A program made the position numbers and the translations under genes. The notes beneath the pieces were generated by a model that was not told where the DNA came from, did no database searches, and worked only from the letters and a program-made list of their open reading frames with translations. This document shows, piece after piece, positions 3,068 through 64,000 of a stretch of DNA of 64,000 nucleotides. This stretch comes from Phycisphaerae bacterium (GTDB lineage: Bacteria > Planctomycetota > Phycisphaerae > UBA1845 > Fen-1342). The stretch spans positions 5,971 through 69,970 of the forward strand of contig JAJVHV010000030.1 in the NCBI GenBank assembly GCA_022072445.1, read 5' to 3'. Position 1 is the stretch's first letter, and each line of letters starts with the position of its first letter.

Positions 3068-3508
3068 TCAGCAGCCGCCGCCGGTCAAGGCGTCGACGAA
3101 CGGCTCCACGTCGAATCCGTTGACCGAACCGTCGTCATTGGCGTCGCCCGCGCACGGCGCGCAAGGCGTGCCGGAGCCGGTCAGCAGCCCGACAAAAGGC
3201 TCAACGTCAAACCCATTCACCGAGCCGTCGCAGTTCGCGTCGCACGGGACGAACCCGGCGCACGGGTCGCCGGCGACGGCGCCGTTCCAGAAACCGCCGA
3301 CCAGTTCAAACGTCCCGCCCGTCATCGGTGCCGCCGGCGAGTTGGCGTCGGGCTGGCCGATCGTTCCGGAAAGGACGAACGTGCCCCCCGAACTCGTCCC
3401 GCCGCCGCCGTCGATGGTGTACCAATTGATGTCGTAAGTCTGTGAGCTGGCAGTGGATACGGTCGTGATCAGCGCCGCGATCGCGGCAGCGCGCAATTTC
3501 CGCGTCAT
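3068..3508 (-). CDS. secreted protein with two dockerin/EF-hand-like Ca-binding repeats
   Basis: ORF 3068..3562; probable start ATG 3508 (MTRKLRAAAIAALITTVSTASS signal peptide). Gly-rich beta domain ending GGFW, then duplicated DAN(C/D)DGSVNGFDVEPFV motif. Confidence 0.65.
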   Translation of the reverse strand: MTRKLRAAAIAALITTVSTASSQTYDINWYTIDGGGGTSSGGTFVLSGTIGQPDANSPAAPMTGGTFELVGGFWNGAVAGDPCAGFVPCDANCDGSVNGFDVEPFVGLLTGSGTPCAPCAGDANDDGSVNGFDVEPFVDALTGGGC

Positions 3509-3778
3509 GCGAATCTCCAGTGGCACTCCGCTAGTGTAGCGAATCGGCGCGACGAACTGCAACCGTCGCCCTTGGCCCGAGGCCGCTGTGCCATAAACGG
3601 CTCTCTATCTGATAAACGCAAAAACCGGCCAGCATCTGACATCTTTTTGTCGCGTTGCCCACGCGCGCCGATCTCAAACGCCCGGGCCCATCACCACAGG
3701 AGCACCGCGTAGGCCCGGCACAGCGTCCACCTCGGATCATAAGTGCTAGTATATTCAGATGTTATGCCAGTTACCGAA

Positions 3779-6250
3779 TCACGGTGCCGGTCGCTCGCCC
3801 GCCATCTTCACGCCCGCGTCGAGCGGCCGCAAATAGAGCCCATACGCACCGCCCACGTTCGTCACCTTCACCAGCACCCGGTTCCAGCCCGCACGCAGCG
3901 GCGCCCGGAAGATCGCCTGAAGCGGGACGGCGGCATGCGGGCCGGCGTCTTCATGCACCACAGCGTCGTTCACCCAGATGCGGCAGCCGTCGTCGCAGCC
4001 CACGGCCATCCGGATCGTACGCTCGTCGGGCGACTGAATGAAACACTGTGCATACGCCGCCGCGTTCTCGCCGGCCTTCTTCTCCGGATTGATCGCACGC
4101 AGGTCGAGATATCCGCTGCGCCCCGCTTTGAGCGGCTTCCAGCCGACCTTCGTGCCATCCTTGCCGGCATACTCGGCCGCCGGGTCGTCGCCGGTCTCCG
4201 GGCTGGTCGCTCCGGGCGCCGGCGTGAGCGGGAAGTAGCCGGCCACGCGCCAGTCGCGGACGTATTCGCCCGGCAGCAGCGCCTCGATTTCGTCGCGATA
4301 CCTCGACACCAACTTCGCGCCCGCCGCGTCCACAAACGCCAGCACGCGATCGACACTGCCCTGCGGCGCGCTCGCCGCCATCGCGTGCAGAAGCGCCACC
4401 TGAAACGCCGGGTCGCCGGTCGCGGACGCAAGCGTGGCTTCCAGATCGGCGAGCAGCGCGGCATCCTTCAACTGCTCGCAGGCCCGCGCCGCGGCCAGCC
4501 GCACGCTGCGCTGCTCGTCGGCCAGCGCCGCCCGCGCCAGCCCCGCCGCCGACGGGTGCTTCCGCTCCGCCGCCGCGTAAATCAGCATGGCCCGCTCGGC
4601 GGGGCGCCAGTCGTGGAATGAATCGGGCGTTAGCGCGTCGGGTTTCCGCTGCACCAGCGCCAGCGCCTGGTCCGCGACCGAGGTGACCGTGCCATCGCCA
4701 TCCGCGTCGATCCAGACCGGATTAGCGATCGCGATCGGCCGCGCCGGGCGGTCCTGATCGTGCACAATCGGCGCCAGCGATTCGTCACCCTCGACCAGCA
4801 CCGCCAGCCACGCGTCTCGCCCCACTTCCAGCTCGCGCTTGGCCGCGAAGCGCCGAACGTCGCGCGACTGCGGCACCGCGATCGTCTCGATCACGTCGCC
4901 GTTCATGACGATCTTCACGCGGTCGCAGTCGATCCACGAGGCGGCCTGCACCTTGATGCTGAGCGTCACCTTGCCGAACATCGCCGCGATCTGCGCGCCC
5001 ATCGGCTCGCCGTTCGCCCAGTACTCGACGAACGGACCCGTGCTCGCAAAGCTCTGCTGGTGTCGCAGCGCCGTCGCCACGTCGGCCGGCTGGATCGCCG
5101 CCGGATCGTCGGTCGGACTGCGCACGAAGTTGCGCGGCCAGGCCGGCAGCGCCGAGTGCACGTTGTGGCTGTCCGAATTCCCCACCGCCGTGTAGCGCTC
5201 CCCGCGGTTCAGCAGGTTGAACCAGTCGCGCGTCACCGAGTACTTGGCGTCGCCGACCGAAAAGGCCTGCGGCAGGTCGGCGTCTTCATAGCCCCAGCCG
5301 ACGTTTTCATTCATGACTTCGATCGTGTCGAAATCCGCCGAGTAGTTCTCGCTGCGCGGCAACCCGGTCACCGGGTCCAGTCGGGCGCGGCCGAAATAAT
5401 CGATGTTGCCCCAGCGCGGGTGATTGAGCTGAATCACCGGCCGCACGCCAAACTTGTTCGGCTCCTCGCGAATGAGCTTGAAAAGCTGGTTGGCGTTGTA
5501 ACTCATCGGCGGCGGCACGGCCCGCTCCGGATCGAGCGGAAACGCGTTGAAGTGCCCGACCGGCGTCGAGACCTCGTTTCCGACCACGGTCGTCACCTGC
5601 CCCTGCTGCCCCAGCTCGCGCAGCGTCGGCTCGTAGTCGATGTTGTGGTTGTGATCGGTCGCGACGGCGAATTCGAGCCCCTCGCCGATGAACGAGATCA
5701 CGCGCTCCTTCATGTTCGCGTCGCCGTGGCCCGAGTGCGTCAGCGTGTGCAGGTGAAAATCGCCGCTGATCCAGCCGGCCGTGTCCACCTCGTGCCACAG
5801 TTCGGCGTTGAATTCGGCCGTCTCGCCCGCGCGAATCTCGATGGGCTGCTCGACGATCGACCACTCCATGCCGCGCGAGGCATAGGCCTTGTACGTGCCG
5901 ACGGGCACGGTTACTAGCGCTTCGCCCGTCAGCGAATAAATGATGTTGTTGCGGATCGCCAGTTCATTCGGCGCCACCTGGGTGTTGGGGAACAGCTTCG
6001 CGCTGGGCCCCTTCTCGCCCAGCAGCGTCAGCCGCGAGGCGAGCGGCTTGCCTTTGGGGTCGGTGATCTTGAACTTCAGAATGCCGCTTGGCGCATCCGC
6101 AGCCGCCGTCGCCAGCGGCGTCTGCGCCCGCGCCGAAGGACTGGCGAACAGGATAGCGGCCGCGACGGGAACGGCGGCCAGCACAGCGTGAAACGCCGCG
6201 GGCAGCAGGGCGGTCAGCGCGGCGTGCCGTGCAGACGTTCGAGCGAGCAT
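3779..6250 (-). CDS. secreted PHP-family (CehA/McbA-like) metallophosphoesterase with HEAT-like repeats and C-terminal beta-sandwich domain
   Basis: ORF 3779..6538; probable start ATG 6250 (MLARTSARHAALTALL.. signal peptide). PHP-type His clusters ISGDFHLHTLTHSGHGD, VATDHNHN, GNSDSHN. Helical repeat region, then a C-terminal GWNRVLVKVTNVGGAYGLYLRP domain. Confidence 0.7.
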   Translation of the reverse strand: MLARTSARHAALTALLPAAFHAVLAAVPVAAAILFASPSARAQTPLATAAADAPSGILKFKITDPKGKPLASRLTLLGEKGPSAKLFPNTQVAPNELAIRNNIIYSLTGEALVTVPVGTYKAYASRGMEWSIVEQPIEIRAGETAEFNAELWHEVDTAGWISGDFHLHTLTHSGHGDANMKERVISFIGEGLEFAVATDHNHNIDYEPTLRELGQQGQVTTVVGNEVSTPVGHFNAFPLDPERAVPPPMSYNANQLFKLIREEPNKFGVRPVIQLNHPRWGNIDYFGRARLDPVTGLPRSENYSADFDTIEVMNENVGWGYEDADLPQAFSVGDAKYSVTRDWFNLLNRGERYTAVGNSDSHNVHSALPAWPRNFVRSPTDDPAAIQPADVATALRHQQSFASTGPFVEYWANGEPMGAQIAAMFGKVTLSIKVQAASWIDCDRVKIVMNGDVIETIAVPQSRDVRRFAAKRELEVGRDAWLAVLVEGDESLAPIVHDQDRPARPIAIANPVWIDADGDGTVTSVADQALALVQRKPDALTPDSFHDWRPAERAMLIYAAAERKHPSAAGLARAALADEQRSVRLAAARACEQLKDAALLADLEATLASATGDPAFQVALLHAMAASAPQGSVDRVLAFVDAAGAKLVSRYRDEIEALLPGEYVRDWRVAGYFPLTPAPGATSPETGDDPAAEYAGKDGTKVGWKPLKAGRSGYLDLRAINPEKKAGENAAAYAQCFIQSPDERTIRMAVGCDDGCRIWVNDAVVHEDAGPHAAVPLQAIFRAPLRAGWNRVLVKVTNVGGAYGLYLRPLDAGVKMAGERPAP

Positions 6251-6602: not shown

Positions 6603-9359
6603 CTAGTGTGCGACCGCTCCAATCCCATCGACGATGAGCTGGAGCGGATCGCCGATCGGCAACACGAACAGGTCGGCGTTGACCAGCTCGTTGCGCAGCG
6701 GCAGCGGGCCGGGGCCGTCGAAGTCGATCGGCGCCTCGACGTTGTGGATGCTGCCGAACACCAGGTTCAGCAGCGCCAGCGACATGAACGGGTTGACGCG
6801 CGTCGCGCCGTTCAGCGCGTTGGCACCGTTGAAGAACTCCGGCGGTGCGAAGGCGGCCAGCAGGTTGACCGTCACGTTGGGCCGGCCGAAACGGAACGCG
6901 TTCAGGCGCGGCTTGAGGTTGCGGGCCACCAGCGCGACGCCGTTCAGCAGCTTCGGCGTGCTCGCCTGCCAGTCGATGTCCTGTGGTGCCGGGAAGCCGT
7001 TGTTGTCGGCGCGGCGGTAGTAGCGTTCGACGAACGTGGAGCGCCAATCGGCCGGGTTGTGCAGGAATTCGCGGAAGTCGAAGACCGGCTCGCCGGCATC
7101 CTGGACGTTGTTGTTATTGAAATCATCGTAGTACGGCGCGCCGTCCGCATCGTAGCCCGGGTTGGCGACGTGCGTGCCGAAGAAGTGCGTCGAGGTCTCG
7201 GGCGCCAGCGTGATGCCCAGAATGGCGGTCGGCGAGATCAGGACGTTGGTCGTCTCGTCGCCTGGCGTAAGCTGCAGCGGGGCGCCGTTGGGGCTGATGA
7301 GCTGGAAGAATCCGGTGCTGTTCGAATCGGGCAGGAACATCACAAAGTACGTGCCCTCGGGGTTGTACGTCGCCACACCCTCGACAAAGTCAACCTGCAC
7401 CGGTTCGCCGTCCGGGCCGAACTGATCCATCAGCACAAAGGCGCTGAAGTTCGGCGGGTTGGTCTCCGGATCGGCCGGCTGGCTGGGATCGAAGTCGGGG
7501 TTCTGAATCCGCAACGCGGGTGCGCCCGGATAGCCCGTGAACGTCTGGGAGAACGCGTCGCCAAACGCCTCGCCATTGACCGTCTCGAACACGGATCCGT
7601 CCATGACGTCGACGATCTGGCGAATACCCTTGCGATTGTGCAGCGGCCGGCCATTGCGACGATCGATGAACTCGACGGCCTGCCCACCCGGCGTCGGGTT
7701 GGCAAATCCGAGGAAGTAGCCGCCGGTGCCGTTACTAATGAAGCGGGCGCTGCTGACGCTGCCGTTGCTGTCCTGAATGATGTCGACGGTGACCGGCGCG
7801 GCGTTGGGGTTCTGGAAGCCGTCCTCGGTGGCCAGGGCGAAAACCTGCGCGGGACCGGAGCGGCTGAACGGCAAATGCGCACGCTGCGCGCGGATGAAGC
7901 GCGCGAACTCGTCCAGGCTGGGAACGCGATCCAGCAGGATACCGGCGTAGATCTCGTCGAACGACGGCTCGGCAGTCGGCGCGAGGAAGTCAATCATCAG
8001 CTTGCGCACGTCGGCCTTGTGCTGCTCGAAGTTGCCGTCGAAGTTAAACATGCCCAGCATCTGAATCTGCTCGTGCAGCAGACCCAGGTTGACCTCGACC
8101 GGGTTGCCGTCGATGCCCAGGAACACCTCGCTGGGCGGTTCGCCCGGGCCATTCGGCCGGACGAACATATAGCGCGCCCCCATGCCGTACTCGAGGTTCA
8201 CGACGATCGCGTGCAGCCCCGACAGGTCGATCGTCTTGCCGTCGAGGAAGAGCTGCGCGAGCTGCGTCAGGATGTGCTCGGAGAAAATCGGCCCGCGGCC
8301 CGGACCGCCGCTCAGATCCTCTTCCGGGAAATTGCGGTCAAACTCGCTGATCGTGGAGTAGTAGAGATCTGGACCCGTAACCGGCACACCCTGTGCCGCG
8401 TCGTCGCCGTGCTCAAAGTGAAAATCCTGGAACGCGACCTTCTGCACCGCCGGCAGCGAACCCAGGAACGAGAGGTCGATGCCGCCCGCGTCGTCGGCGA
8501 TCACGAACCCGCCGCGCAGCATGATCTGCGCCGCGGCCACGACCACGTCGTCAACCGTGTCGGCCTGCGAAAGCTGCACGTTCGCCGCCGCCATGTCCAT
8601 CGCGCGTCGGGCGGCGTCGGGAATAACCGTGTCGAAGAGCGAAGCGAGCACGTCGTCGGCCAGACCCAGCAGCTCGTCGATCGTGATCTCCTCATCTACG
8701 CCCGAATCGCTGAAGAGATTCTCGAACGCGTCGCGGATGCGCGCGACCAGGCCAGAAAGGCTCAGCTCGAATTCGCGCGGGTCGAGGCCGACCGAGACGA
8801 GCATCGCGCGAATCTTGGCGTGAATCAGCGTGCTCAGCGGGTCGACCACGACGCCCGTCAGCGCACCGTCGGTCGAGTTCTCAGTCGCTGGAATGTTGAC
8901 GATCGTCTTCAGGTCGGCGTCCCCGTCGCCGTCAAAGTCCACGTTCAGCACGATGTCCACACCGACCGGCAGTCCGGAAACGCTGAACGACCCGTCGGTT
9001 GCGATACTGAAGCTGGGATACGGCTCGCCGTTGGCGTCGAGCAGCGCGTCGCCATTGAGATCGGTGAACCACCCGGTGGCGTTCGTTGCGATCGCGCGGG
9101 AACGGAGCTTTCGCGCGGACGGGGAATCGCCGGCGTCGCTGGTGGTGGAAACGGAGTCCACGTTACCGCTCACGGAGCCGCCAAAACTCAGCGCCGTTGA
9201 CGAAACGTCGCCCGCCGCCCCGTCGGTCGAGCCACCCGTGCCGTCCGTCGTGCCGCCCGTGCCGTCGTCATCGCCGTCGTTGTTCCCCTGCTGCGGGCAG
9301 CCGGCAAGCAGCAGGCAGACCGCGAGGGGGGTGATTGCGTGAAGCCACCATCTGGTCAT
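6603..9359 (-). CDS. large lipoprotein of unknown function
   Basis: ORF 6603..9626; probable start ATG 9359 (MTRWWLHAITPLAVCLLLAGC lipobox), then an Asp/Gly/Thr-rich linker. No catalytic motif recognised. Confidence 0.65.
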   Translation of the reverse strand: MTRWWLHAITPLAVCLLLAGCPQQGNNDGDDDGTGGTTDGTGGSTDGAAGDVSSTALSFGGSVSGNVDSVSTTSDAGDSPSARKLRSRAIATNATGWFTDLNGDALLDANGEPYPSFSIATDGSFSVSGLPVGVDIVLNVDFDGDGDADLKTIVNIPATENSTDGALTGVVVDPLSTLIHAKIRAMLVSVGLDPREFELSLSGLVARIRDAFENLFSDSGVDEEITIDELLGLADDVLASLFDTVIPDAARRAMDMAAANVQLSQADTVDDVVVAAAQIMLRGGFVIADDAGGIDLSFLGSLPAVQKVAFQDFHFEHGDDAAQGVPVTGPDLYYSTISEFDRNFPEEDLSGGPGRGPIFSEHILTQLAQLFLDGKTIDLSGLHAIVVNLEYGMGARYMFVRPNGPGEPPSEVFLGIDGNPVEVNLGLLHEQIQMLGMFNFDGNFEQHKADVRKLMIDFLAPTAEPSFDEIYAGILLDRVPSLDEFARFIRAQRAHLPFSRSGPAQVFALATEDGFQNPNAAPVTVDIIQDSNGSVSSARFISNGTGGYFLGFANPTPGGQAVEFIDRRNGRPLHNRKGIRQIVDVMDGSVFETVNGEAFGDAFSQTFTGYPGAPALRIQNPDFDPSQPADPETNPPNFSAFVLMDQFGPDGEPVQVDFVEGVATYNPEGTYFVMFLPDSNSTGFFQLISPNGAPLQLTPGDETTNVLISPTAILGITLAPETSTHFFGTHVANPGYDADGAPYYDDFNNNNVQDAGEPVFDFREFLHNPADWRSTFVERYYRRADNNGFPAPQDIDWQASTPKLLNGVALVARNLKPRLNAFRFGRPNVTVNLLAAFAPPEFFNGANALNGATRVNPFMSLALLNLVFGSIHNVEAPIDFDGPGPLPLRNELVNADLFVLPIGDPLQLIVDGIGAVAH

Positions 9360-57122: not shown

Positions 57123-58196
57123 ATGAGCACGAAATATCAGACCGGGCTGCGCGTCAGCGAATACGTACTGGAAGAATGCGTCGGCAGCGGCGCGTTCGCC
57201 GAGGTTTGGCGCGCCCGGCATCACATTTGGGAGTCCGAACAGGTCGCGGTGAAACTGCCGCTCCAGCCCGAATTCGCGCGCTATCTGCGGCGCGAGGGCG
57301 CGGTGGTCCACGGCGTGCGGCACGCCAACGTCGTGCGCGTCCTGGGGATCGACCCGTACGGCGAGATTCCGTATCTGGTCATGGAGCTGGTGCGCGGTCC
57401 GTCGCTCAAAAGCGTGATCGTCGAGCATCGCACCGGCGTGCCGGTCGACCTGGCGCTGCGCGTTTTCCGCGGCATCCTGACCGGGTTGGCGGCCGCGCAC
57501 GAAGCGAATGTGATTCACCGCGACATCAAGCCGGGCAACATCCTGCTCGATCTCAATGGCAAGCCGCTGTCGGAGCTGCGCAGCGAGCAGGTGAAGCTGG
57601 GCGACTTCGGCTTCGGGCTGGCCGACGTCGACGCCATGCAGTCGATCGCGCAGTCGGCGTCGATCAGCCGCTCCGACGCTCTGGTCGGAACGATCGCGTA
57701 CATGGCCCCGGAGCTGCGCGACGGGCACGCGGCAGCCGACGAGAAGTCCGACCTGTACGCCGTCGGGGTGGTGCTCTTTGAGCTGCTGACCGGCGAGCGG
57801 CCGGCCGGCGCCGAGCTGCCCAGCAGTGTCCGGCCGGCGATCAGCCCGGCGCTCGACGAGCTATTCAAGAAACTCTATGCGCGGCACGACCGCCGCTACG
57901 CCTCGGCCAACGCCGTGCTGCACGACCTGGACGCGCGGGTGCCCGCCCCCGACGGGGCGCCCGGCGCGCCGCACCTGCCGCCCTTGCCCGAGTCGGGCCG
58001 CCCGCGTTCGTCGCGGGCGAACTGGACGTGCGGCTCGTGCCATCGGCCGGCCGATCCGGCCGACCAGTTCTGCATCCACTGCGGGGCCCAACTGGTCGAG
58101 CGCGTGCGGCGTTGTCCGGGCTGCGATGGGTTTCCCGGCGTGGACGATCGATTCTGCATTTTTTGCGGCGCGTCGCTGCCGCCCGTGACCACGTGA
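57123..58196 (+). CDS. Ser/Thr protein kinase with C-terminal double Zn ribbon
   Basis: ORF 57096..58196. GSGAFAEVWRA..VAVKLP, HRDIKPGNILLD, DFG, GTIAYMAPE. C-terminus CGSC..CIHCG and CPGC..CIFCG. Confidence 0.9.
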   Translation: MSTKYQTGLRVSEYVLEECVGSGAFAEVWRARHHIWESEQVAVKLPLQPEFARYLRREGAVVHGVRHANVVRVLGIDPYGEIPYLVMELVRGPSLKSVIVEHRTGVPVDLALRVFRGILTGLAAAHEANVIHRDIKPGNILLDLNGKPLSELRSEQVKLGDFGFGLADVDAMQSIAQSASISRSDALVGTIAYMAPELRDGHAAADEKSDLYAVGVVLFELLTGERPAGAELPSSVRPAISPALDELFKKLYARHDRRYASANAVLHDLDARVPAPDGAPGAPHLPPLPESGRPRSSRANWTCGSCHRPADPADQFCIHCGAQLVERVRRCPGCDGFPGVDDRFCIFCGASLPPVTT

Positions 58197-58207
58197 GGTG
58201 ACGCGCG

Positions 58208-58504
58208 ATGCACGGCCAAGGCGTCATTGTCCTCTGGGTTTTCGGCCTGCTGTTCGTCGGCGTCATCGGCATCGCCATGCTGGTGCTTGTCGCCGTTCTG
58301 CGCGCCGGCGGCAGGATTTTCCGGCACGTCGGTTTGGCCATGGGCGAGACCGGCGGCCGCGGGTCGGCCCCCTCGGGTGCCGCGGGCCGGCCGCGCTTCT
58401 GCACGCGGCGCGGCTGCCTGCATCCCAACCGCGGCGCGGCCCGCTTCTGCGCCCGCTGTGGTCAGGCGCTCGGCGGCGGGTACGATACGGAACTGTATGG
58501 ATGA
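58208..58504 (+). CDS. small TM protein with cytoplasmic Zn ribbon
   Basis: VIVLWVFGLLFVGVIGIAMLVLVAVL helix, then CTRRGCLHPNRGAARFCARCG. The 3' end overlaps the next gene by 8 nt. Confidence 0.6.
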   Translation: MHGQGVIVLWVFGLLFVGVIGIAMLVLVAVLRAGGRIFRHVGLAMGETGGRGSAPSGAAGRPRFCTRRGCLHPNRGAARFCARCGQALGGGYDTELYG

Positions 58505-59969
58505 GATCGCGCGACAGCGGCAGTTTGAGGAGCAGTTCCTCCAGCAGATCCGCGCCAAGGCCGCCGGCCTGACGCGCGGCACCCTGCCCGCCGACCGCGT
58601 CGTCGTCGAAAAGGTGCCCGACGGCATCGACGGCGTGCGGGCCACGCTGAGCCGCCTGGAGGTCTTCGATCACGAGCTGCTGCACCGCATGCCGGGCACG
58701 CAGGCCTGCCAGCTCAAGTTCACACGCTCGATGCTCGGCGGCCTGATGGAGCGGACCGTCTCGCGGCTGCGGGCCGTCGTGCTCGCGCCGGTCGCCGCGC
58801 TGGCCACCGGTCAGGCGCCCGGACCGGTGACCCGCGAGGACGTGCTCAACGCGCTGGCTCGCTACGACCTGATGCCGCGCGGCATGAGACCCACCGGCGT
58901 GGTCTTCGCCGCGCCCACCGGCTTCAGCGACAGCGCCCGCTCGCTGGTGAACGGGCCCGGTTCGCCTACGGTGATTCTGATGGGCGGCCGGGCCGACGGC
59001 GGCTGGGACGTGAGCATGTCCGATGCGGTCGCGAAGAGTCCCTGGGGCAAGCTCTTCGAGCTCGAAACGCAGGACGAGCTGGTCAAGCGCCTCGCGCATC
59101 ATCTCGACGAGTCCGCCGACCTCGTCGATTCTCGCGGACTGTCGATCGAGGAGCTGAGCGAGAAACTCGGCGTGGACCGCGACAAGACCGAGACCCTGGT
59201 GCGCAAACTGGCCCGCACCGACCCGCGCATCATGACCGTCGCCCACGACGGCCGAACGCACGTGTGCCGTACACCCTTCGCCGAGGAGGGCTCTTCCATG
59301 AGTCTCTGGAGCCGAGTTCGCAGACTGCTGCGGCTGAAGCCGACCGTCGCCGAGCAGGTGCGCGAGATGACCGCGCAGCGCGTCAAGCTGGAGCAGCAGC
59401 GCTTCGAGATCGACCGCGCGGTCAACAAGCTCCAGGACGAAGAGGTGCGCATCGTCAAGAGCGGGGCCGCCGCCACCACCGACGTCGAAAAACGCCAGCT
59501 TGCCAGCAAGCTCGTGCGCCTGCGGCGCGACCTGGGCCGGCAAAAGGCCCAGGCCGACGTGCTCACCAAACAGATCGACATCATCGGCACGCACCTGCAC
59601 CATCTGACGCTGGCCGAGCGCGGGCGCCGCATGGAACTGCCCAAGGCCGAGGAGCTGACGCGCGAGGCGGCCCAGGCCGAACAGGTCATGGCCGATCTCT
59701 CGGCCAACGCCGAACTGGCCGTGGGCATCGAAGTTGGCGGCGGGGCGCAGGCCGTGTCGGATGAGGAAGCGGCGATCCTCGAAGAATTCGCGGCGGCGGC
59801 GGGGACGACGCCGGTGAAGGAAACGCCCGCGGCGGCGCCGGCGGCGGGCGAATCGGGACGGGTGGCGGATGCCGGCCGGTCAGGCCCGGTCCGCGCACCC
59901 AGCGCAGCGCCGCCGGTGCCTGGTGCGGCGGCGTCGAAGCGTGAGTCGGCGAAGCCGGAGATGGGGTAG
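58497..59969 (+). CDS. fusion protein: unknown N-terminal domain + wHTH-like segment + C-terminal ESCRT-III/Snf7-like coiled coil
   Basis: ORF 58227..59969; start ATG 58497 (MDEIARQRQFEE). C-terminal half SLWSRVRRLLRLKPTVAEQVREMTAQRVKLEQQRFEIDRAVNKLQDEE..LVRLRRDLGRQKAQADVL is paralogous to 60721..61326. Confidence 0.65.
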   Translation: MDEIARQRQFEEQFLQQIRAKAAGLTRGTLPADRVVVEKVPDGIDGVRATLSRLEVFDHELLHRMPGTQACQLKFTRSMLGGLMERTVSRLRAVVLAPVAALATGQAPGPVTREDVLNALARYDLMPRGMRPTGVVFAAPTGFSDSARSLVNGPGSPTVILMGGRADGGWDVSMSDAVAKSPWGKLFELETQDELVKRLAHHLDESADLVDSRGLSIEELSEKLGVDRDKTETLVRKLARTDPRIMTVAHDGRTHVCRTPFAEEGSSMSLWSRVRRLLRLKPTVAEQVREMTAQRVKLEQQRFEIDRAVNKLQDEEVRIVKSGAAATTDVEKRQLASKLVRLRRDLGRQKAQADVLTKQIDIIGTHLHHLTLAERGRRMELPKAEELTREAAQAEQVMADLSANAELAVGIEVGGGAQAVSDEEAAILEEFAAAAGTTPVKETPAAAPAAGESGRVADAGRSGPVRAPSAAPPVPGAAASKRESAKPEMG

Positions 59970-59985
59970 AGGGTTTGCAGAGGCG

Positions 59986-60351
59986 ATGGACATGGCAAGT
60001 GCGCTGCCCACAGAGCTGCTGTTGCGTAAGCCCGTCGGCGAAGAAACTCTGCGTGAGCTTGTTCGCCGCATCGCCCAGCTTCGTAGCGACGCTTGCATCA
60101 TTCTGTTTGGGTCGCGGGCGCGCGGGGACGCACGGCCGGGGAGCGATCTTGATCTGATGGTTATCACGCAGGCGGATCGGAGTCCGCTGGCGATCGCGGG
60201 CGATCTCTACGCGGCACTGGCGGACCGTGATTTCGGGTTAGATATCGTCGTCATGCCGCGCGACCGCGTGCGGCGGGCACGAGACGGGTTCGATCCTTTT
60301 CTGAACGAGGTGCTCGCACAAGGCAGAGTCCTGCATGGCCGACTGCATTGA
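59986..60351 (+). CDS. minimal nucleotidyltransferase (MNT/MntA-type antitoxin), pair 1
   Basis: ORF 59869..60351; start ATG 59986. ILFGSRARGDARPGSDLDLMV (GSxxxGxxxxxSDxDL). Confidence 0.85.
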   Translation: MDMASALPTELLLRKPVGEETLRELVRRIAQLRSDACIILFGSRARGDARPGSDLDLMVITQADRSPLAIAGDLYAALADRDFGLDIVVMPRDRVRRARDGFDPFLNEVLAQGRVLHGRLH

Positions 60352-60724
60352 CTTTGAAGACTGGCTGGCCAAAGCGGAGGGAGATCGAGAAGGCGCCATG
60401 CTGCTGATGCGCGAATTCAGCAAATCTATCGCCGGCCTGATTGCCTTTTTGTGTCAGCAGTCGGTGGAGAAGTACCTCAAGGCGCTCCTGGTGCGTCAAC
60501 GAGTCTCTTTTCCTCGTACGCATGACCTGGCGGCGCTTGCGGCAGGCAGCTATCCGGACATCGCTCGAATTCAGCCATCGCTCGCGCGACTTCAGCCGTA
60601 TGCGGTTAATGTGCGATACCCTGGATTTGATCCGGAGCGCCCCGAATGCGAAGAGGCGATCGGCCATCTGGAACGAGTCCGGTCACATTGCCGCGAGCTG
60701 CTCGAATTGGGTGAGTGCGAATGA
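60335..60724 (+). CDS. HEPN-domain protein (HepT-type toxin), pair 1
   Basis: Overlaps the MNT gene by 17 nt. QQSVEKYLKALL..FPRTHDLAAL..AVNVRYP HEPN pattern. Confidence 0.85.
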   Translation: MADCIDFEDWLAKAEGDREGAMLLMREFSKSIAGLIAFLCQQSVEKYLKALLVRQRVSFPRTHDLAALAAGSYPDIARIQPSLARLQPYAVNVRYPGFDPERPECEEAIGHLERVRSHCRELLELGECE

Positions 60725-61326
60725 ACTTCTTCACCTGGCTGACGACCAAACGCAAGACGCTCGCGACGATGAGCGCCGCCGAGCTGCGCGCCCAGGAGAT
60801 GATGCTCGAGAACGAGCGCGACCGCATGCTGAAGCGCATGGAGAAGCTGGCCGGCGAGAAGCACCAGGTGATCGAGCGCGGCGCGAAGGAACGCACGCCC
60901 GAGCTGCGTAAGACCTACGCGCAGCAGTTCGACCTGCTGCACACCGAGCAGATGATGCTCAGCCGGCACCTGAACATCCGCAGCAAGGAGCTGCTGACCG
61001 TCTCGCGGCTGCGCATGCTGCGCGAGACGGCCCAGCGGGCCGGCACCGGCATGGGTGCGTTCGGCACGATTCGCGAAAAGGATCTGGCGGTGATCGAGGC
61101 CCTGATCGAGAACGACAAGGTCACCACCGACATGTACCAGGAGCGGCTCGACGCGATCCTGCAGATCGGCGCGGCGGCGGACGAGGAGGCGACCGGCCTT
61201 TCGGCGGCGGCGGGCGAGCTGCTCAAGGTCTGGAACGACATGGACGCCGGGCTGATCTCCAACACGGCCGAAGCGTTCGACGAGGCGGAGAAGCGGGTGC
61301 GTGAGAGAAACAGAGCAGCGGAGTAG
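60721..61326 (+). CDS. ESCRT-III/Snf7-like coiled-coil protein (paralogue 2)
   Basis: ORF 60715..61326. ATG 60721 forms an ATGA overlap with the HEPN stop. The ~200-aa helical protein has a basic N-terminus, long heptad hairpin pattern and acidic C-terminal part. The family call is by eye only. Confidence 0.55.
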   Translation: MNFFTWLTTKRKTLATMSAAELRAQEMMLENERDRMLKRMEKLAGEKHQVIERGAKERTPELRKTYAQQFDLLHTEQMMLSRHLNIRSKELLTVSRLRMLRETAQRAGTGMGAFGTIREKDLAVIEALIENDKVTTDMYQERLDAILQIGAAADEEATGLSAAAGELLKVWNDMDAGLISNTAEAFDEAEKRVRERNRAAE

Positions 61327-61332
61327 CCTCAT

Positions 61333-61701
61333 ATGCAACGACGCCCGAACCAGCGCGAAAACCGCGAGGCGCTCCGCGGCCCGATTGACAATCGCGTCAT
61401 TGGACAAATCGTAGACCGCTTGTCCAAGCGGTTGCCGGACTGCTGCATTGTGCTTTTCGGCTCCCGGGCCTACGGAACGCCGACCAGCCAGAGTGACGTT
61501 GATCTGCTGGTGGTGGCCCCGTCGCAACGTGACCCGTACGTGCTCTGCGGCGAACTACATCGCGAACTCAGTCCACGGGATTTCTCCGTTGATCTACTGG
61601 TCATGACGCCCGAGACTTTTCGTCAGCGCCGCTCACGGTTTGATCCGTTTTTTGCAGAACTCACCTCAAAGGGCCGCGTCCTGCATGGTCATCTCCCCTG
61701 A
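61333..61701 (+). CDS. minimal nucleotidyltransferase (MNT), pair 2
   Basis: VLFGSRAYGTPTSQSDVDLLVV. Paralogous to pair 1 through the C-terminal KGRVLHG. Confidence 0.85.
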   Translation: MQRRPNQRENREALRGPIDNRVIGQIVDRLSKRLPDCCIVLFGSRAYGTPTSQSDVDLLVVAPSQRDPYVLCGELHRELSPRDFSVDLLVMTPETFRQRRSRFDPFFAELTSKGRVLHGHLP

Positions 61702-62071
61702 TGCGGCGGAATGGGTCGATCGCGCCGAAGGGGACGTGCGCGCGCTTCGGAAGCTCGACCCAGTCGAGGATCGTGTCGTCGTGGCGTTTCTCGCTCAGCA
61801 GGCCGCGGAGAAGTACCTGAAGGCCACTCTGGTCAACAGCCGGATATGCTTTCCAAAACCACACGACTTGGTCGCGCTCGTCTCCCTGTGTCGGCAGATC
61901 AGTGATGAATTCGAGTCGTTGGTGGGCGCTGCCGCCGTGTTGCAGCCCTTTGCGGTGGACGTGCGATATCCCGGACCCGCCCCCGGAGAGGCCGCCGTGC
62001 GGGCGGCGATTGAGAATATGGACGTGATCCGAACCTTTTGCCGCGAGAGGCTTGCGCTGCAAGCGCCCTGA
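61685..62071 (+). CDS. HEPN-domain protein, pair 2
   Basis: ORF 61640..62071; start ATG 61685 gives a 17-nt overlap with the MNT gene. QQAAEKYLKATL..FPKPHDLVAL..AVDVRYP. Confidence 0.85.
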   Translation: MVISPDAAEWVDRAEGDVRALRKLDPVEDRVVVAFLAQQAAEKYLKATLVNSRICFPKPHDLVALVSLCRQISDEFESLVGAAAVLQPFAVDVRYPGPAPGEAAVRAAIENMDVIRTFCRERLALQAP

Positions 62072-62095
62072 ACGGCGATCACGCGGAGATGTACG

Positions 62096-62713
62096 ATGGC
62101 CCTATTCAAGTCAAAAGAAGAGCGCCGCATCGAGCAGGACATCAAGATCCGCCAGGGCATCCGCCGGATCGAGAAGTCCATCAGCGAGCAGAGCAAGTTC
62201 ACCGACGAGTTCGTGAAGAACGCCCGGCATGCGAAACAGATCGGCGACAACGGGCAGTATGTCTTCATCCGCAACTCGCTCAAGAAGACCGCCACCATCA
62301 AGAAGCTGCTCGAACGGCAGCTTCTGAGCGTCAAAAACGCGCTGCTGATCAAACGCCAGGCCGAGGCCTCGGCCGATTTCGCCAACGCCATGAGCCTGAT
62401 GGCCCGCGAAGTGGGCAAGCTCTACGGCGACACCGATCTCGTGAAGACGCAGACCGACTGGGAGAAGGCGCTGCTGCAGAGCCAGACGATGGAGGAGCGC
62501 ATGCAGATGTTCCTCGATTCGATCGAAAGCGGCGCCGCGGCCGACATCGCCGCCTCGCCGACGGCCGCCGAAGCGATCAGCGACGACGAGATCGACCGCA
62601 TGATCGCGGTTGAGGAGCAGGTGGAGAAGGCGAAGGAGACGCAGCAGATGTCGGCGCTGCGGGCGGAGCTGGCGGAGCTGAAGGGGGAGAGTAAGGATAA
62701 GGAGACGAAGTGA
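62096..62713 (+). CDS. ESCRT-III/Snf7-like coiled-coil protein (paralogue 3)
   Basis: GGAG 8 nt upstream of the ATG. MALFKSKEERRIEQDIKIRQGIRRIEKSI.., FANAMSLMAREVGKL, acidic ISDDEIDRMIAVEE, terminal amphipathic helix LRAELAELK. By eye it aligns along its length with CHMP2/Vps2-type proteins. Confidence 0.6.
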   Translation: MALFKSKEERRIEQDIKIRQGIRRIEKSISEQSKFTDEFVKNARHAKQIGDNGQYVFIRNSLKKTATIKKLLERQLLSVKNALLIKRQAEASADFANAMSLMAREVGKLYGDTDLVKTQTDWEKALLQSQTMEERMQMFLDSIESGAAADIAASPTAAEAISDDEIDRMIAVEEQVEKAKETQQMSALRAELAELKGESKDKETK

Positions 62714-62850
62714 GGGCGGGCGTCTCCATGACTCAGGGACAGCTTGAATCGTGGGATGTCGTCCGCGGGCAGGTCCCGATTCTGGAACCAGATGAAGAAA
62801 GAGGACAAGTACAACGCGATTCATGAGCCGGATGACGACACGCCAGACGA

Positions 62851-63549
62851 GTGAGAGCATTGCCGATTAAGCCGCAGAAGTGGTTAGAGATGCTTGCTGA
62901 GGACTTGGTGCGCGACATCACGTCCAACCACTCGTTGCGCAGGTACACGACAAACGCGGATCTGCTTGGGGCGTGGGCTGAAGCGTGCGTACGAAACCTG
63001 ATTGCTCGCATGGTTCATCCGCTGCGAGTCTCACGCGGTGCGATCGTTTACGAAGGCATTTGCCCGGACGAAGTCCCAGAGCTGGATGCCATCGTGTGGA
63101 CCGCCGCACCCGTGCCGGCGGTCTTCGATCTTGGCGACTTTGCAATAGTACCGCGCGGCTCGGCCGTTGCTTTTCTTGAAGTCAAGCGAAGCGCGTACAC
63201 CGGCGTAAGCGACCGGATGCGCAAGACGCTCAACGGTACTGAGTGTCTCATCACACATTGCGAGCAAGAAAAGGGAACGCGCTTGGACGGAGAGGCTCTG
63301 GGTGTCGTCTGCATGAAGAGAGAGGACCAGAAACTCGACCGCACACTCCAAAGGCTCATGGACGACCAGAAGGCTGTTCTGCTCCTTGAGGAGAAGAATG
63401 GGTCCTGGAGGGCCATGGCGAGGGACGTACTTCGGCTTGTGAACTTTCTCGCGGCGGTGCGGGTCCGTGCGTTCGTCCTTGCATCCCAGCTCGGCGTAAA
63501 CACCGAGATTCTGGCTCCGGTACTAGGTAGCGACGGGACAGCGTCATGA
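62851..63549 (+). CDS. PD-(D/E)xK nuclease-fold-like protein of unknown function
   Basis: GTG start (alternative ATG 62890). VPELDAIVW ... AVAFLEVKRS gives a D...E-x-K arrangement. The stop forms an ATGA overlap with the MNT pair 3 start. Confidence 0.5.
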   Translation: MRALPIKPQKWLEMLAEDLVRDITSNHSLRRYTTNADLLGAWAEACVRNLIARMVHPLRVSRGAIVYEGICPDEVPELDAIVWTAAPVPAVFDLGDFAIVPRGSAVAFLEVKRSAYTGVSDRMRKTLNGTECLITHCEQEKGTRLDGEALGVVCMKREDQKLDRTLQRLMDDQKAVLLLEEKNGSWRAMARDVLRLVNFLAAVRVRAFVLASQLGVNTEILAPVLGSDGTAS

Positions 63550-63887
63550 TCGGTATCTGCACGCCCGTTCGAGTCACCGACGAACGGATCGCCGAAGTCG
63601 TGCGCCGCCTGGTCGAGGCGTTGCATCCGCAGCGCATCTACCTCTTCGGCTCGCATGCCTACGGAACGCCTCACGCGGACAGCGACGTCGACCTCCTTGT
63701 GCTGGTTGATGACGCCGAGCTGACGCAGGACGATCATGACCAGCGCGGCTATCGCTCTCTGCGCGGGATGTTTCTACCCATCGAGCTGCACATTCGAGGT
63801 CGGCAGGCGTTCGAACGGCGCGCGGTCGCTCCTCACAGTTTCGAGAACGAGATCCTGCGAAAGGGCAAGCTGCTCTATGCCGCGTGA
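63546..63887 (+). CDS. minimal nucleotidyltransferase (MNT), pair 3
   Basis: YLFGSHAYGTPHADSDVDLLVLV. Confidence 0.85.
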   Translation: MIGICTPVRVTDERIAEVVRRLVEALHPQRIYLFGSHAYGTPHADSDVDLLVLVDDAELTQDDHDQRGYRSLRGMFLPIELHIRGRQAFERRAVAPHSFENEILRKGKLLYAA

Positions 63888-64000
63888 TCCCGCTCTCATA
63901 CGCGAGTGGCTGCAGAAGGCCCGAAACGACCTCGAGACCGCGCGGCGCGCGATGGCCGAGAAGCCCATTCTCGATACCGGGTGCTTTCATTGCCAGCAGG
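63877..64000 (+). CDS. HEPN-domain protein, pair 3 (5' part, truncated by the window end)
   Basis: ATG 63877 lies inside the MNT 3' end. MPRDPALIREWLQKARNDLETARRAM matches the N-termini of HEPN 1 and 2 (..DWLAKAEGD.., ..EWVDRAEGD..). Confidence 0.7.
   Translation, partial: MPRDPALIREWLQKARNDLETARRAMAEKPILDTGCFHCQQ

What the first reader, a model, noticed from the sequence alone, without database searches (positions are those of the whole stretch)
60331..63887. HEPN start codon is embedded at the same aligned position of all three MNT genes
In pairs 1 and 2 the HEPN ATG is formed by the His-Gly codons of the MNT motif G-R-V-L-H-G (gtc ctg cAT Ggc / cAT Ggt). In pair 3 it is formed by the Tyr-Ala codons at the equivalent G-K-L-L-Y-A (tAT Gcc). 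This holds even though the remaining MNT tails differ (17-nt versus 11-nt overlap). Conservation of the out-of-frame start across diverged paralogues implies selection for translational coupling and fixed toxin:antitoxin stoichiometry.
Basis: seen in the sequence. Interest (0 to 1): 0.4.

Follow-up and report, generated by a model that had tools for sequence, protein, structure and literature searches.

The report
HEPN start codon inside MNT gene
In three neighbouring MNT-HEPN gene pairs, the second gene starts at an ATG built from the same Tyr/His codon near the end of the first gene; this holds for about 90% of this known gene-pair family, so it is real and under selection but ordinary for the family.

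Summary
HEPN ATGs at 60335, 61685 and 63877 lie at second base of the aligned His/His/Tyr codon of the MNT motif G-[KR]-h-L-[HY]. The overlaps are 17, 17 and 11 nt. An independent gene caller picked the same three starts.

This is a family-wide trait, not something special to these paralogues. In 146 diverse MNT-HEPN pairs, 130 carry the ATG at exactly this position. The MNT proteins have a median identity of 36%. The Tyr/His codon is TAT/CAT 140 times and TAC 4 times, against about 47% NAT at other Tyr/His codons of the same genes. The next codon almost always begins with G. A purine-rich Shine-Dalgarno-like stretch lies 6-16 nt upstream and shows synonymous bias towards purines.

The MNT stop wanders, giving overlaps of 8-44 nt. 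The few exceptions are relocated starts or decayed HEPN genes.

Selection on the embedded start is therefore well supported. Translational coupling, a fixed stoichiometry and toxin-antitoxin function remain inferences.

In related Phycisphaerae genomes the same operon lacks these pairs, so they appear to be insertions. That conserved operon encodes a Snf7-type ESCRT-III protein and a Vps4-like ATPase, which may be the more interesting feature of this region.

The parts
59992..60351 (+). MNT1, a minimal nucleotidyltransferase. An alternative ATG lies at 59986.
   Evidence: Pfam PF01909 (1.3e-10) and PF18765. GSx10DxD signature seen in the alignment. Gene call on L162 at 3544-3903.
60335..60724 (+). 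HEPN1, 129 aa, PF05168 class.
   Evidence: Pfam HEPN 2.8e-19. Gene call on L162 at 3887-4276 uses this ATG. It is the only ATG/GTG/TTG in frame upstream of the domain.
60335..60351 (+). 17-nt MNT1/HEPN1 overlap. The ATG is formed by cAT Ggc (His-Gly).
   Evidence: Sequence; HMM column 116/117.
60320..60328 (+). Weak purine-rich Shine-Dalgarno-like stretch (aaggcagag) inside the MNT1 codons Q-G-R.
   Evidence: Anti-SD duplex energy of -4.7 kcal/mol, which ranks at 0.25 among windows of the same gene. The family consensus is GARGGNAAGG at -16 to -7.
61333..61701 (+). MNT2.
   Evidence: Pfam PF01909 6.2e-10; gene call on L162 at 4885-5253.
61685..62071 (+). HEPN2, 128 aa. The mechanical ORF list begins it at TTG 61640, but family alignment and the gene call favour ATG 61685.
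   Evidence: Pfam HEPN 2.3e-18.
61685..61701 (+). 17-nt MNT2/HEPN2 overlap. The ATG is formed by cAT Ggt (His-Gly).
   Evidence: Sequence.
61668..61673 (+). Shine-Dalgarno-like aaaggg inside the MNT2 codons K-G.
   Evidence: Anti-SD duplex energy of -4.4 kcal/mol, which ranks at 0.06 within the gene.
63546..63887 (+). MNT3. Its ATG overlaps the stop of the upstream 219-aa gene (ATGA).
   Evidence: Pfam PF01909 3.2e-10 and PF18765 1e-9; gene call on L162 at 7098-7439.
63877..64000 (+). HEPN3, cut by the window end. The full gene is 141 aa and would end at window-equivalent position 64302.
   Evidence: Pfam HEPN 8.9e-6 on the 41 aa visible. The full gene is on L162 at 7429-7854.
63877..63887 (+). 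11-nt MNT3/HEPN3 overlap. The ATG is formed by tAT Gcc (Tyr-Ala).
   Evidence: Sequence.
63860..63869 (+). Shine-Dalgarno-like aaagggcaag inside the MNT3 codons K-G-K.
   Evidence: Anti-SD duplex energy of -4.4 kcal/mol, which ranks at 0.15 within the gene.

Best explanation
Each of the three loci is an ordinary member of the MNT-HEPN two-gene family. The MNT is a pol-beta-type minimal nucleotidyltransferase and the HEPN is of the PF05168 'HEPN-T' class.

In this family the translation-initiation region of the HEPN gene sits inside the last conserved motif of the MNT gene. The codons for [E/Q/K]-G-[K/R]-h-h supply a purine-rich Shine-Dalgarno-like stretch. The Tyr/His codon (always TAT or CAT) plus the first G of the next codon supply the ATG. 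Purifying selection on that ATG and on the purine stretch fixes its position relative to the MNT core. The MNT reading frame then runs on for a variable 1-13 codons to its stop.

Shown: the position, its family-wide conservation, the synonymous-site constraint, and that this ATG is the real HEPN start.

Inferred: every ribosome finishing MNT passes over the HEPN start and terminates 8-44 nt beyond it. HEPN synthesis is therefore tied to MNT translation, either by local re-initiation or unwinding, or by occlusion. This would keep HEPN, the presumed RNase toxin, from being made without MNT, its presumed neutralising partner, or in excess of it.

The three pairs are insertions of such modules at gene junctions of a conserved Phycisphaerae operon.
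For: - Position and frame in the window.
- Independent gene calls on the same ATGs.
- Genome set, seeded on the N-terminal half of MNT: 67 pairs, 55 with the in-frame ATG at +1 of the column-116 codon. Codons are TAT 52, CAT 10, TAC 3. The next base is G in 66 of 67. Other Tyr/His codons of the same genes are NAT 128 and NAC 143, p = 2e-14.
- Metagenome set, seeded on the HEPN QQxxEK motif: 79 pairs, 75 with the ATG. Codons are TAT 74, CAT 4, TAC 1, p = 1.5e-20.
- Diversity: median MNT identity is 36%. Of 91 scorable clusters at 60% identity or more (93 in all), 82 have the ATG.
- The ATG is the only possible start in 50 pairs. From it a recognisable HEPN begins 3-12 residues later.
- Exceptions are informative. 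All four TAC codons, and the Ala and Val substitutions, occur where the start has moved or where HEPN is frameshifted or truncated. The relocated starts are ATGA at the stop, ATG one codon downstream, GTG at -8 and TTG at -2.
- Orphan MNTs L038 and L081 have TAT T...
- Shine-Dalgarno-like element: consensus GARGGNAAGG. Median anti-SD energy is -6.6 against -2.4 kcal/mol, and 67% of junctions fall in the best tenth of their own gene. Gly is GGR 42 of 70 times against 135 of 370 elsewhere (p = 3e-4). Arg is AGR 9 of 19 times against 90 of 678 (p = 4.5e-4).
- Insertion context: related genomes carry the same operon without the pairs, or with other small genes at the same junctions.
Against: - Coupling itself is not demonstrated.
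- Overlap length is not conserved (8-44 nt, mode 14-20). Experimental termination-reinitiation falls off steeply with distance, and the overlaps typical of it are 1, 4 and 8 nt (PMC10666635).
- The co-embedded Shine-Dalgarno-like element would allow independent initiation.
- No conserved secondary structure occludes the site.
- In the window itself the Shine-Dalgarno-like stretches are weak (-4.4 to -4.7 kcal/mol).
- The purine richness partly follows from the E-G-K amino acids.
- Tyr is retained in most MNTs that lack the ATG, so the residue also has a protein-level role.
- No PF05168-class MNT-HEPN pair was found in the literature I searched with a demonstrated toxin-antitoxin activity.
Confidence: 0.78

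Rival explanations
1. Frozen accident. The junction is inherited from the ancestral pair. It persists only because any functional start codon is conserved and because dual coding makes it hard to move. There is no selection for coupling or stoichiometry, and HEPN is initiated independently at its own Shine-Dalgarno sequence and ATG.
For: - A Shine-Dalgarno-like element lies at normal spacing.
- The stop position is variable.
- There is no masking structure.
- Starts have been relocated at least five times with HEPN still intact (L005, L011, L053, L064, L151).
- A Bacteroidota subgroup uses an ATGA overlap in the other frame.
Against: - Relocations are rare, about 5 in 146.
- Nearly all relocated starts still lie inside or at the very end of the MNT gene, so overlap or abutment is itself retained.
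- The HEPN leader before the first conserved helix varies from 3 to 12 residues, so the HEPN protein does not dictate the position.
Confidence: 0.3
2. Protein-level by-product. The MNT C-terminus needs Tyr/His followed by Glu/Asp/Ala/Gly, and the ATG is a chance consequence of those residues.
For: Tyr is kept in most MNTs that lack the ATG, for example L011, L064, L069, L038 and L081.
Against: - Synonymous choice is 140 NAT to 4 NAC, against about 47% NAT elsewhere in the same genes. This holds even in loci with over 60% G+C (TAT 23, CAT 9, TAC 2).
- Asn (AAT) and Asp (GAT) are never seen, but neither is TAC when the start is in place.
- The Bacteroidota MNTs end before this residue.
Confidence: 0.03
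3. The true HEPN starts are elsewhere, for example TTG 61640 for HEPN2 as in the mechanical ORF list, and the aligned ATGs are internal Met codons.
For: In-frame TTGs exist upstream of the HEPN2 ATG, at -44 and -32.
Against: - Pairs 1 and 3 have no other start candidate.
- In 50 other pairs the ATG is the only possible start.
- Gene calls choose the ATG.
- Family alignment begins at this Met.
Confidence: 0.03
4. The pairs are not toxin-antitoxin modules. They are the two subunits of a heteromeric nucleotidyltransferase, the original HI0073/HI0074 proposal. The overlap then serves co-translational assembly of a complex.
For: - HEPN-T lacks the RX4HXY motif of HepT.
- The closest solved structures are uncharacterised structural-genomics proteins (1ufb, 1wol, 1o3u).
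Against: - Invariant H63 and R94-Y95 fit the HEPN-T catalytic variant and the Tyr nucleotidylation site predicted by Anantharaman et al. (PMC3710099).
- The modules behave as mobile insertions. They are absent from the same operon in RAS1 and L166, and are replaced by other small genes in L018 and L165.
- Many family members are decayed on the HEPN side only.
Confidence: 0.12
5. The +1-frame overlap supports programmed +1 frameshifting to make an MNT-HEPN fusion protein.
For: HEPN is in the +1 frame in about 90% of pairs, and naturally fused MNT-HEPN proteins exist (PMC13000451).
Against: - I identified no slippery or stalling motif.
- A start codon and a Shine-Dalgarno-like element are conserved, and a frameshift would not need either.
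- The Bacteroidota and L011 versions use the other frame.
Confidence: 0.02

Closest known systems
MNT-HEPN modules of the COG1708/COG2250 (PF01909 + PF05168, 'HEPN-T') class, for example Thermus thermophilus TT1696 (1UFB) with its MNT (1WOT), and Thermotoga TM0613 (1O3U)
   Same: - Same Pfam domains.
- Same gene order, with MNT 5' of HEPN.
- Same protein size, under 150 aa.
- Same conserved HEPN residues (QQ..EK, H63, R94-Y95).
- Mobile and patchy distribution, including insertion inside conserved operons, as reported for T. thermophilus HB8 (PMC2701414).
- A profile of this family hits 1ufb at 5.6e-18.
   Different: Nothing essential differs. The window pairs are 27-51% identical to other members. 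HEPN1 and HEPN2 have Leu where 86% of the family has His (position 39). I did not find the fixed embedded start described in the papers I read.
Type VII toxin-antitoxin HepT/MntA (DUF86 PF01934 + PF01909; Shewanella SO_3166/SO_3165, Legionella lpg2920/lpg2921)
   Same: - MNT upstream, with the GSx10DxD motif.
- The genes overlap. The stop and start overlap in Shewanella (PMC4621449). The overlap is 8 bp in Legionella (PMC11586414) and 17 and 11 nt in Geobacillus DUF86 pairs (PMC6929052). The 8-, 11- and 17-nt overlaps (Legionella, Geobacillus) fit the same +1-frame series 3n+5.
- One DUF86-type pair seen here (L147) also embeds its ATG in ...ATA TAT GCT TGA.
   Different: - The HEPN here is PF05168, not DUF86.
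- There is no RX4HXY motif.
- The NCBIfam MntA model scores 35.6 against a cut-off of 60.
- RNase activity and AMPylation are untested for this class.
Translationally coupled overlapping gene pairs (termination-reinitiation; Huber et al., PMC6728339 and PMC10666635)
   Same: The genes are co-directional. The downstream start lies inside the upstream ORF. The products are expected to form a complex.
   Different: Typical coupled pairs overlap by 1, 4 or 8 nt. Here the overlaps are 11-17 nt, and 8-44 nt across the family. What is conserved is the position of the start in the upstream protein motif, not the stop-start distance.
HI0073/HI0074 'two-protein nucleotidyltransferase' of Haemophilus influenzae
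   Same: A small MNT (1NO5 is a weak hit, E = 0.0025) is paired with a four-helix HEPN-fold partner.
   Different: The relationship is distant in sequence, and the HEPN subfamily is different.

Membership tests
MNT-HEPN module, HEPN-T class (PF01909/PF18765 + PF05168; COG1708-COG2250) | The upstream protein is a minimal pol-beta-type nucleotidyltransferase with the GSx10DxD signature. | tested here: met
   Pfam PF01909 at 39.8-41.9 bits against a cut-off of 21 for all three MNTs. G42, S43, D54 and D56 are invariant in the alignment.
MNT-HEPN module, HEPN-T class (PF01909/PF18765 + PF05168; COG1708-COG2250) | The downstream protein has a PF05168 HEPN domain. | tested here: met
   69.8, 66.9 and 26.3 bits against a cut-off of 22; the third value is for a fragment. 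The PDB profile hits are 1ufb, 1wol, 1o3u and the sacsin HEPN.
MNT-HEPN module, HEPN-T class (PF01909/PF18765 + PF05168; COG1708-COG2250) | The two genes form a dyad with MNT 5' of HEPN, are co-directional, and both products are under about 150 aa. | tested here: met
   The products are 119-122 aa and 128-141 aa.
MNT-HEPN module, HEPN-T class (PF01909/PF18765 + PF05168; COG1708-COG2250) | Mobile, patchy distribution between related genomes. | tested here: met
   The same operon lacks the pairs in RAS1 and L166. Other small genes sit at the same junctions in L018 and L165.
MNT-HEPN module, HEPN-T class (PF01909/PF18765 + PF05168; COG1708-COG2250) | HEPN is toxic and is neutralised by the cognate MNT. 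| not testable with these tools
   This needs expression experiments.
Type VII toxin-antitoxin HepT/MntA | The toxin belongs to DUF86 (PF01934) or NTase_sub_bind and has the RX4HXY motif. | tested here: not met
   Only PF05168 is hit. The family invariants are H63 and R94-Y95. No RX4HXY is present in HEPN1-3.
Type VII toxin-antitoxin HepT/MntA | The antitoxin reaches the NCBIfam MntA equivalog cut-off. | tested here: not met
   NF047752 scores 35.6 bits against a cut-off of 60.
Type VII toxin-antitoxin HepT/MntA | MNT AMPylates a conserved Tyr next to the catalytic Arg of the toxin. | tested here: inconclusive
   An invariant Arg-Tyr (R94-Y95) exists. The modification itself cannot be tested here.
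Termination-reinitiation coupled gene pair | The downstream start lies within the upstream ORF or a few nt from its stop (typically -1, -4 or -8). | tested here: inconclusive
   The start is inside the upstream ORF, but the overlaps are 17, 17 and 11 nt, and 8-44 nt across the family. This is longer than the typical efficient range (PMC10666635).
Termination-reinitiation coupled gene pair | Downstream translation depends on upstream translation. | not testable with these tools
   This needs reporter fusions or ribosome profiling.

The most novel reading that the evidence does not exclude
The end of the conserved MNT 'protein motif' may partly be the translated shadow of the downstream gene's ribosome-binding site. 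The TAT/CAT codon, the following G-initial codon and the purine-biased Gly/Arg/Lys codons would be held by selection on HEPN initiation. On this reading the family-defining embedded site works as a ratio-setting device. Ribosomes translating MNT would alternately occlude and hand over to the HEPN start, so the presumed toxin can never be made without its neutraliser or faster than it. This geometry may extend to the characterised DUF86/HepT type VII systems, whose reported overlaps of 8, 11 and 17 nt fit the same series.
Probability: 0.3. Interest if true: 0.45.

Novelty: new member of a known kind. Interest (0 to 1): 0.33.

Why it matters
For genome annotation, the result gives a simple and reliable rule for calling HEPN starts in this very abundant family: the ATG lies in ...[LIV] TAT/CAT G.. 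of the upstream MNT. It also helps to spot decayed pairs.

For toxin-antitoxin biology, it identifies a nucleotide-level constraint that is easy to mutate synonymously. That makes the long-assumed translational coupling of MNT and HEPN directly testable.

It is also a clean example of a conserved protein motif whose codon choice is dictated by an overlapping gene.

It does not reveal a new kind of system.

Tried and rejected
- RNA structure at the junction. I computed base-pairing probabilities for 136 junctions. Mean unpaired probability was 0.35-0.50 around the site against 0.42 overall, so there is neither a conserved hairpin nor a special opening. This gives no support for a structure-unmasking model.
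- Plasmid collection search with MNT1. It returned one distant orphan MNT (Leptolyngbya) and no HEPN. It was useful only as an orphan control (TAT TCC).
- Exact-sequence look-up of HEPN1. It is not on record. The neighbouring gene cc205 was on record and gave the contig and gene calls.
- Extension to DUF86/HepT pairs. I found only two such pairs by motif search in the fetched DNA. A viral-contig scan with one of them found nothing. Generality beyond the PF05168 class is therefore untested, apart from the overlap lengths reported in the literature.
- Paralogy of the coiled-coil neighbours. BLASTP and hhalign between cc201, cc205 and the C-terminus of p490 found nothing.
- PADLOC. It gave only generic nucleotidyltransferase and kinase hits and no defence-system assignment.
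- Solved-structure search for the ATPase after HEPN3. Cdc48/p97 chains rank first because both of their AAA domains match, so the search cannot separate Vps4 from Cdc48.

Full report
**1. Checking the observation**

The region holds three co-directional gene pairs.

- Pair 1: MNT1 runs to the TGA at 60349-60351, and HEPN1 starts at ATG 60335.
- Pair 2: MNT2 runs from 61333 to 61701, and HEPN2 starts at ATG 61685.
- Pair 3: MNT3 runs from 63546 to 63887, and HEPN3 starts at ATG 63877 and runs off the window.

In pairs 1 and 2 they come from cAT Ggc and cAT Ggt, the His-Gly of GRVLHG. In pair 3 the ATG comes from tAT Gcc, the Tyr-Ala of GKLLYA. The overlaps are 17, 17 and 11 nt.

Pfam assigns the upstream proteins to PF01909 and PF18765. 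It assigns the downstream ones to PF05168 HEPN, not to DUF86. MAFFT and an HMM alignment both place H/H/Y in one column, which I call column 116 of a profile built from the three MNTs.

A Logan assembly contig covers the same DNA (L162; window coordinate = L162 coordinate + 56448). Its independent gene calls put all three HEPN starts on these ATGs. It also shows HEPN3 in full, at 141 aa.

**2. Is it more than chance, and is it special to this locus?**

- Sample A: 80 loci from one genome per species. The search pattern lies in the N-terminal half of MNT, so the junction was not selected for.
- Sample B: 80 metagenome loci. The search pattern is the QQxxEKxLK motif of HEPN.

After HMM detection of both genes, sample A gives 67 MNT-HEPN pairs. 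Of these, 55 have an in-frame ATG at +1 of the column-116 codon. Sample B gives 79 pairs, of which 75 do. Together that is 130 of 146.

The MNTs are diverse. Median pairwise identity is 36%. At 60% identity or more they form 93 clusters; of the 91 that could be scored, 82 carry the embedded ATG. The sampled genomes include Archaea, Chloroflexota, Acidobacteriota, Planctomycetota, Nitrospinota and others.

The codon at column 116 is TAT or CAT 140 times and TAC 4 times. Other Tyr and His codons in the same MNT genes are NAT 262 times and NAC 295 times. Fisher p is 2e-14 for sample A and 1.5e-20 for sample B. The bias holds in loci with more than 60% G+C. The next codon starts with G in 142 of 146 pairs.

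The position is therefore held at the nucleotide level, not just through the amino-acid motif.

**3. Is this ATG the real start?**

In 50 pairs it is the only ATG, GTG or TTG between the upstream in-frame stop and the HEPN domain. From it, a recognisable HEPN begins after a leader of 3-12 residues. Because the leader length varies, the HEPN protein does not fix the position.

The exceptions are instructive:

| Locus | Column-116 region | What happened to the start |
|---|---|---|
| L011 | TAC | ATGA stop/start overlap |
| L064 | TAC CAT G | Start one codon downstream |
| L005 | Tyr replaced by Ala | GTG at -8 |
| L053 | Tyr replaced by Val | TTG at -2 |
| L151 | TAT TCC | GTG at +16 |
| L069 | TAC G, so ACG sits at the canonical spot | No start visible |

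Several other loci are HEPN genes that are frameshifted or truncated: L027 pair 2, L049, L062, L066, L115 and L120. Orphan MNTs L038 and L081 have TAT T...

A Bacteroidota subgroup ends its MNT at ...EG[IV]xL with CTATGA. This is a 4-nt overlap only 2 nt from the canonical place, and the downstream protein is again PF05168.

**4. What else is embedded?**

Upstream of the ATG the consensus is G-A-R-G-G-N-A-A-G-G-T-N-C-T-N-T-ATG. This is a purine run whose AAGG ends 6 nt before the ATG.

Predicted pairing to the anti-Shine-Dalgarno sequence has a median of -6.6 kcal/mol, against -2.4 for other windows in the same genes. In 67% of junctions it falls in the best tenth of their own gene.

Synonymous choices lean towards purines. 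Gly is GGR 42 of 70 times against 135 of 370 elsewhere (p = 3e-4). Arg is AGR 9 of 19 times against 90 of 678 (p = 4.5e-4).

In the window itself the stretches are weaker, at -4.4 to -4.7 kcal/mol.

I found no conserved RNA structure that hides or exposes the site.

**5. What varies?**

The MNT tail after column 116 is 1-13 codons in most pairs. This gives overlaps of 8-44 nt with a mode of 14-20, plus a few of 71-95 nt.

So the conserved feature is where the start sits in the MNT motif, not the distance between stop and start. This matters for the coupling claim. In experiments, termination-reinitiation declines sharply with distance, and overlaps of 1, 4 and 8 nt dominate in genomes (PMC10666635). 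The architecture still guarantees that ribosomes finishing MNT run over the HEPN initiation site. Whether the net effect is hand-over, unwinding or occlusion cannot be decided computationally.

**6. What the proteins are**

The HEPN family has invariant Q41, Q42, E45, K46, H63, R94 and Y95 in HEPN1 numbering. This matches the HEPN-T class described by Anantharaman et al. In that class the canonical His of Rx4-6H is often replaced and another His is conserved. A conserved Tyr was proposed there as a nucleotidylation site (PMC3710099).

The closest solved structures are TT1696 (1ufb), 1wol, TM0613 (1o3u) and the sacsin HEPN. For MNT they are 1wot and HI0073.

The defining HepT motif RX4HXY is absent, and the NCBIfam MntA model is below its cut-off. 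The pairs are therefore not members of the characterised type VII HepT/MntA family, although they probably work in a similar way. Toxin-antitoxin function is an inference.

**7. Comparison with the literature**

Individual papers note overlaps in MNT-HEPN pairs:

- stop/start overlap in Shewanella (PMC4621449);
- 8 bp in Legionella (PMC11586414);
- 17 and 11 nt in Geobacillus DUF86-type pairs (PMC6929052).

The 8-, 11- and 17-nt overlaps (Legionella, Geobacillus) fit the series 3n+5 expected from an xAT G embedding. One DUF86-type pair in my data shows it too (L147, ATA TAT GCT TGA).

I found no paper describing the fixed, motif-embedded start. My search covers open-access literature only.

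**8. Genomic context**

The window comes from a Phycisphaerae MAG. The three pairs sit at junctions of a conserved operon, in this order:

1. Ser/Thr kinase
2. small zinc-ribbon protein
3. p490
4. pair 1
5. cc201
6. pair 2
7. cc205
8. p219
9. pair 3
10. AAA ATPase

The junctions are tight. The HEPN1 stop and the cc201 start form ATGA, as do the p219 stop and the MNT3 start. The HEPN3 stop is 2 nt before the ATPase start.

Related genomes carry the operon without the pairs (RAS1 and L166). Others have different small genes at the same junctions: a PF05635 four-helix-bundle gene in L018 and L165, and ParE and DUF2442 genes in RAS1. Pair 3 has a positional counterpart in L077, and MNT2 has one in L018.

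The pairs therefore behave as mobile insertions, as reported for this family in Thermus (PMC2701414). MNT1 and MNT2 are mutual best hits at 41% identity. MNT3 belongs to another subclade.

**9. Verdict**

It goes too far on coupling, stoichiometry and toxin-antitoxin identity.

The trait is a general property of a known family. The locus is a new member of a known kind and is of modest interest. The practical gains are a start-calling rule and a clean, silently mutable handle for testing coupling.

The operon into which the pairs are inserted deserves separate attention (see the items noticed in passing).

Noticed in passing
window 57123-64000, continuing on L162 7857-8999: The genes between and around the three pairs form an operon conserved in Phycisphaerae: Ser/Thr kinase with zinc ribbon, a 98-aa zinc-ribbon protein, p490, cc201, cc205, p219 and an AAA ATPase.

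cc205 (62096-62713) is a Snf7-type ESCRT-III protein:
- 22 of 47 diverse family members hit Pfam Snf7 (best E-value 1e-7).
- The family profile hits CHMP2A, CHMP3 and yeast Snf7 in the PDB (2e-4 to 8e-4).
- An AlphaFold model (pLDDT 85) has ESCRT-III proteins as its top Foldseek matches, although the E-values are weak.

The ATPase after HEPN3 carries a Vps4_C hit, which is above the Pfam cut-off in L077 (27.7 bits against 21.3) and weak in L162.

Phycisphaerae lack FtsZ yet divide by binary fission (PMC6952346). A 2024 survey states that ESCRT homologues are identifiable in archaea but not in bacteria (PMC10936438), although PspA and Vipp1 are recognised as bacterial members of the ESCRT-III superfamily. 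No paper in the library links Phycisphaerae or Planctomycetota with ESCRT-III plus Vps4. This may be more interesting than the finding itself.
   Followed up: partly
window 60721-61326 (cc201) and 58497-59969 (p490): These are two further helical proteins of the same operon. They have no hit in Pfam, NCBIfam or PADLOC, and no similarity to the cc205 profile detectable by BLASTP or hhalign. Both are strongly conserved in a related Planctomycetota MAG (L018; E = 2e-96 and 5e-184). Their function is unknown.
   Followed up: partly
L018 1721-2212; L165 7423-7845; L164 8854-10838: The same operon junctions that hold MNT-HEPN pairs in the window hold other small genes in related genomes. These are a PF05635 23S_rRNA_IVP four-helix-bundle gene in L018 and L165, and DUF2442 and ParE/antitoxin genes in RAS1. 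The junctions look like hotspots for small selfish modules.
   Followed up: partly
window 60449-60451 and 61790-61792 (residue 39 of HEPN1 and its aligned residue 36 in HEPN2): HEPN1 and HEPN2 have Leu (FLCQQ, FLAQQ) where 86% of the family, including HEPN3 (FHCQQ), has His. This may be a subclade change in or near the active site.
   Followed up: no
L069 around 3297-3312: One Actinomycetota pair has TAC GAA, so ACG sits exactly where the ATG should be, and no other start codon is in frame. It could be a pseudogene, an assembly error or a non-AUG start.
   Followed up: no
L024, L034, L039, L046, L071, L079 (Bacteroidota): In this subgroup the MNT ends at ...EG[IV]xL with CTATGA. The PF05168 HEPN starts at that ATGA in the other reading frame, only 2 nt from the canonical position. 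The Tyr residue is absent, so it is not essential for MNT.
   Followed up: partly
L003 2856-6246 (Nitrospinota MAG): Four MNT genes, three of them with HEPN partners, lie directly in tandem with no other genes between them. The first HEPN appears truncated.
   Followed up: no
window 60721-60724 and 63546-63549: ATGA stop/start overlaps join HEPN1 to cc201 and p219 to MNT3. The inserted pairs are therefore stitched into the host operon with junctions of the coupling type on their outer sides as well.
   Followed up: no
L166 8685-10025: In one Phycisphaerae genome the gene directly after the Snf7-like cc205 is a MurD-type Mur ligase, a gene of cell-wall synthesis.
   Followed up: no
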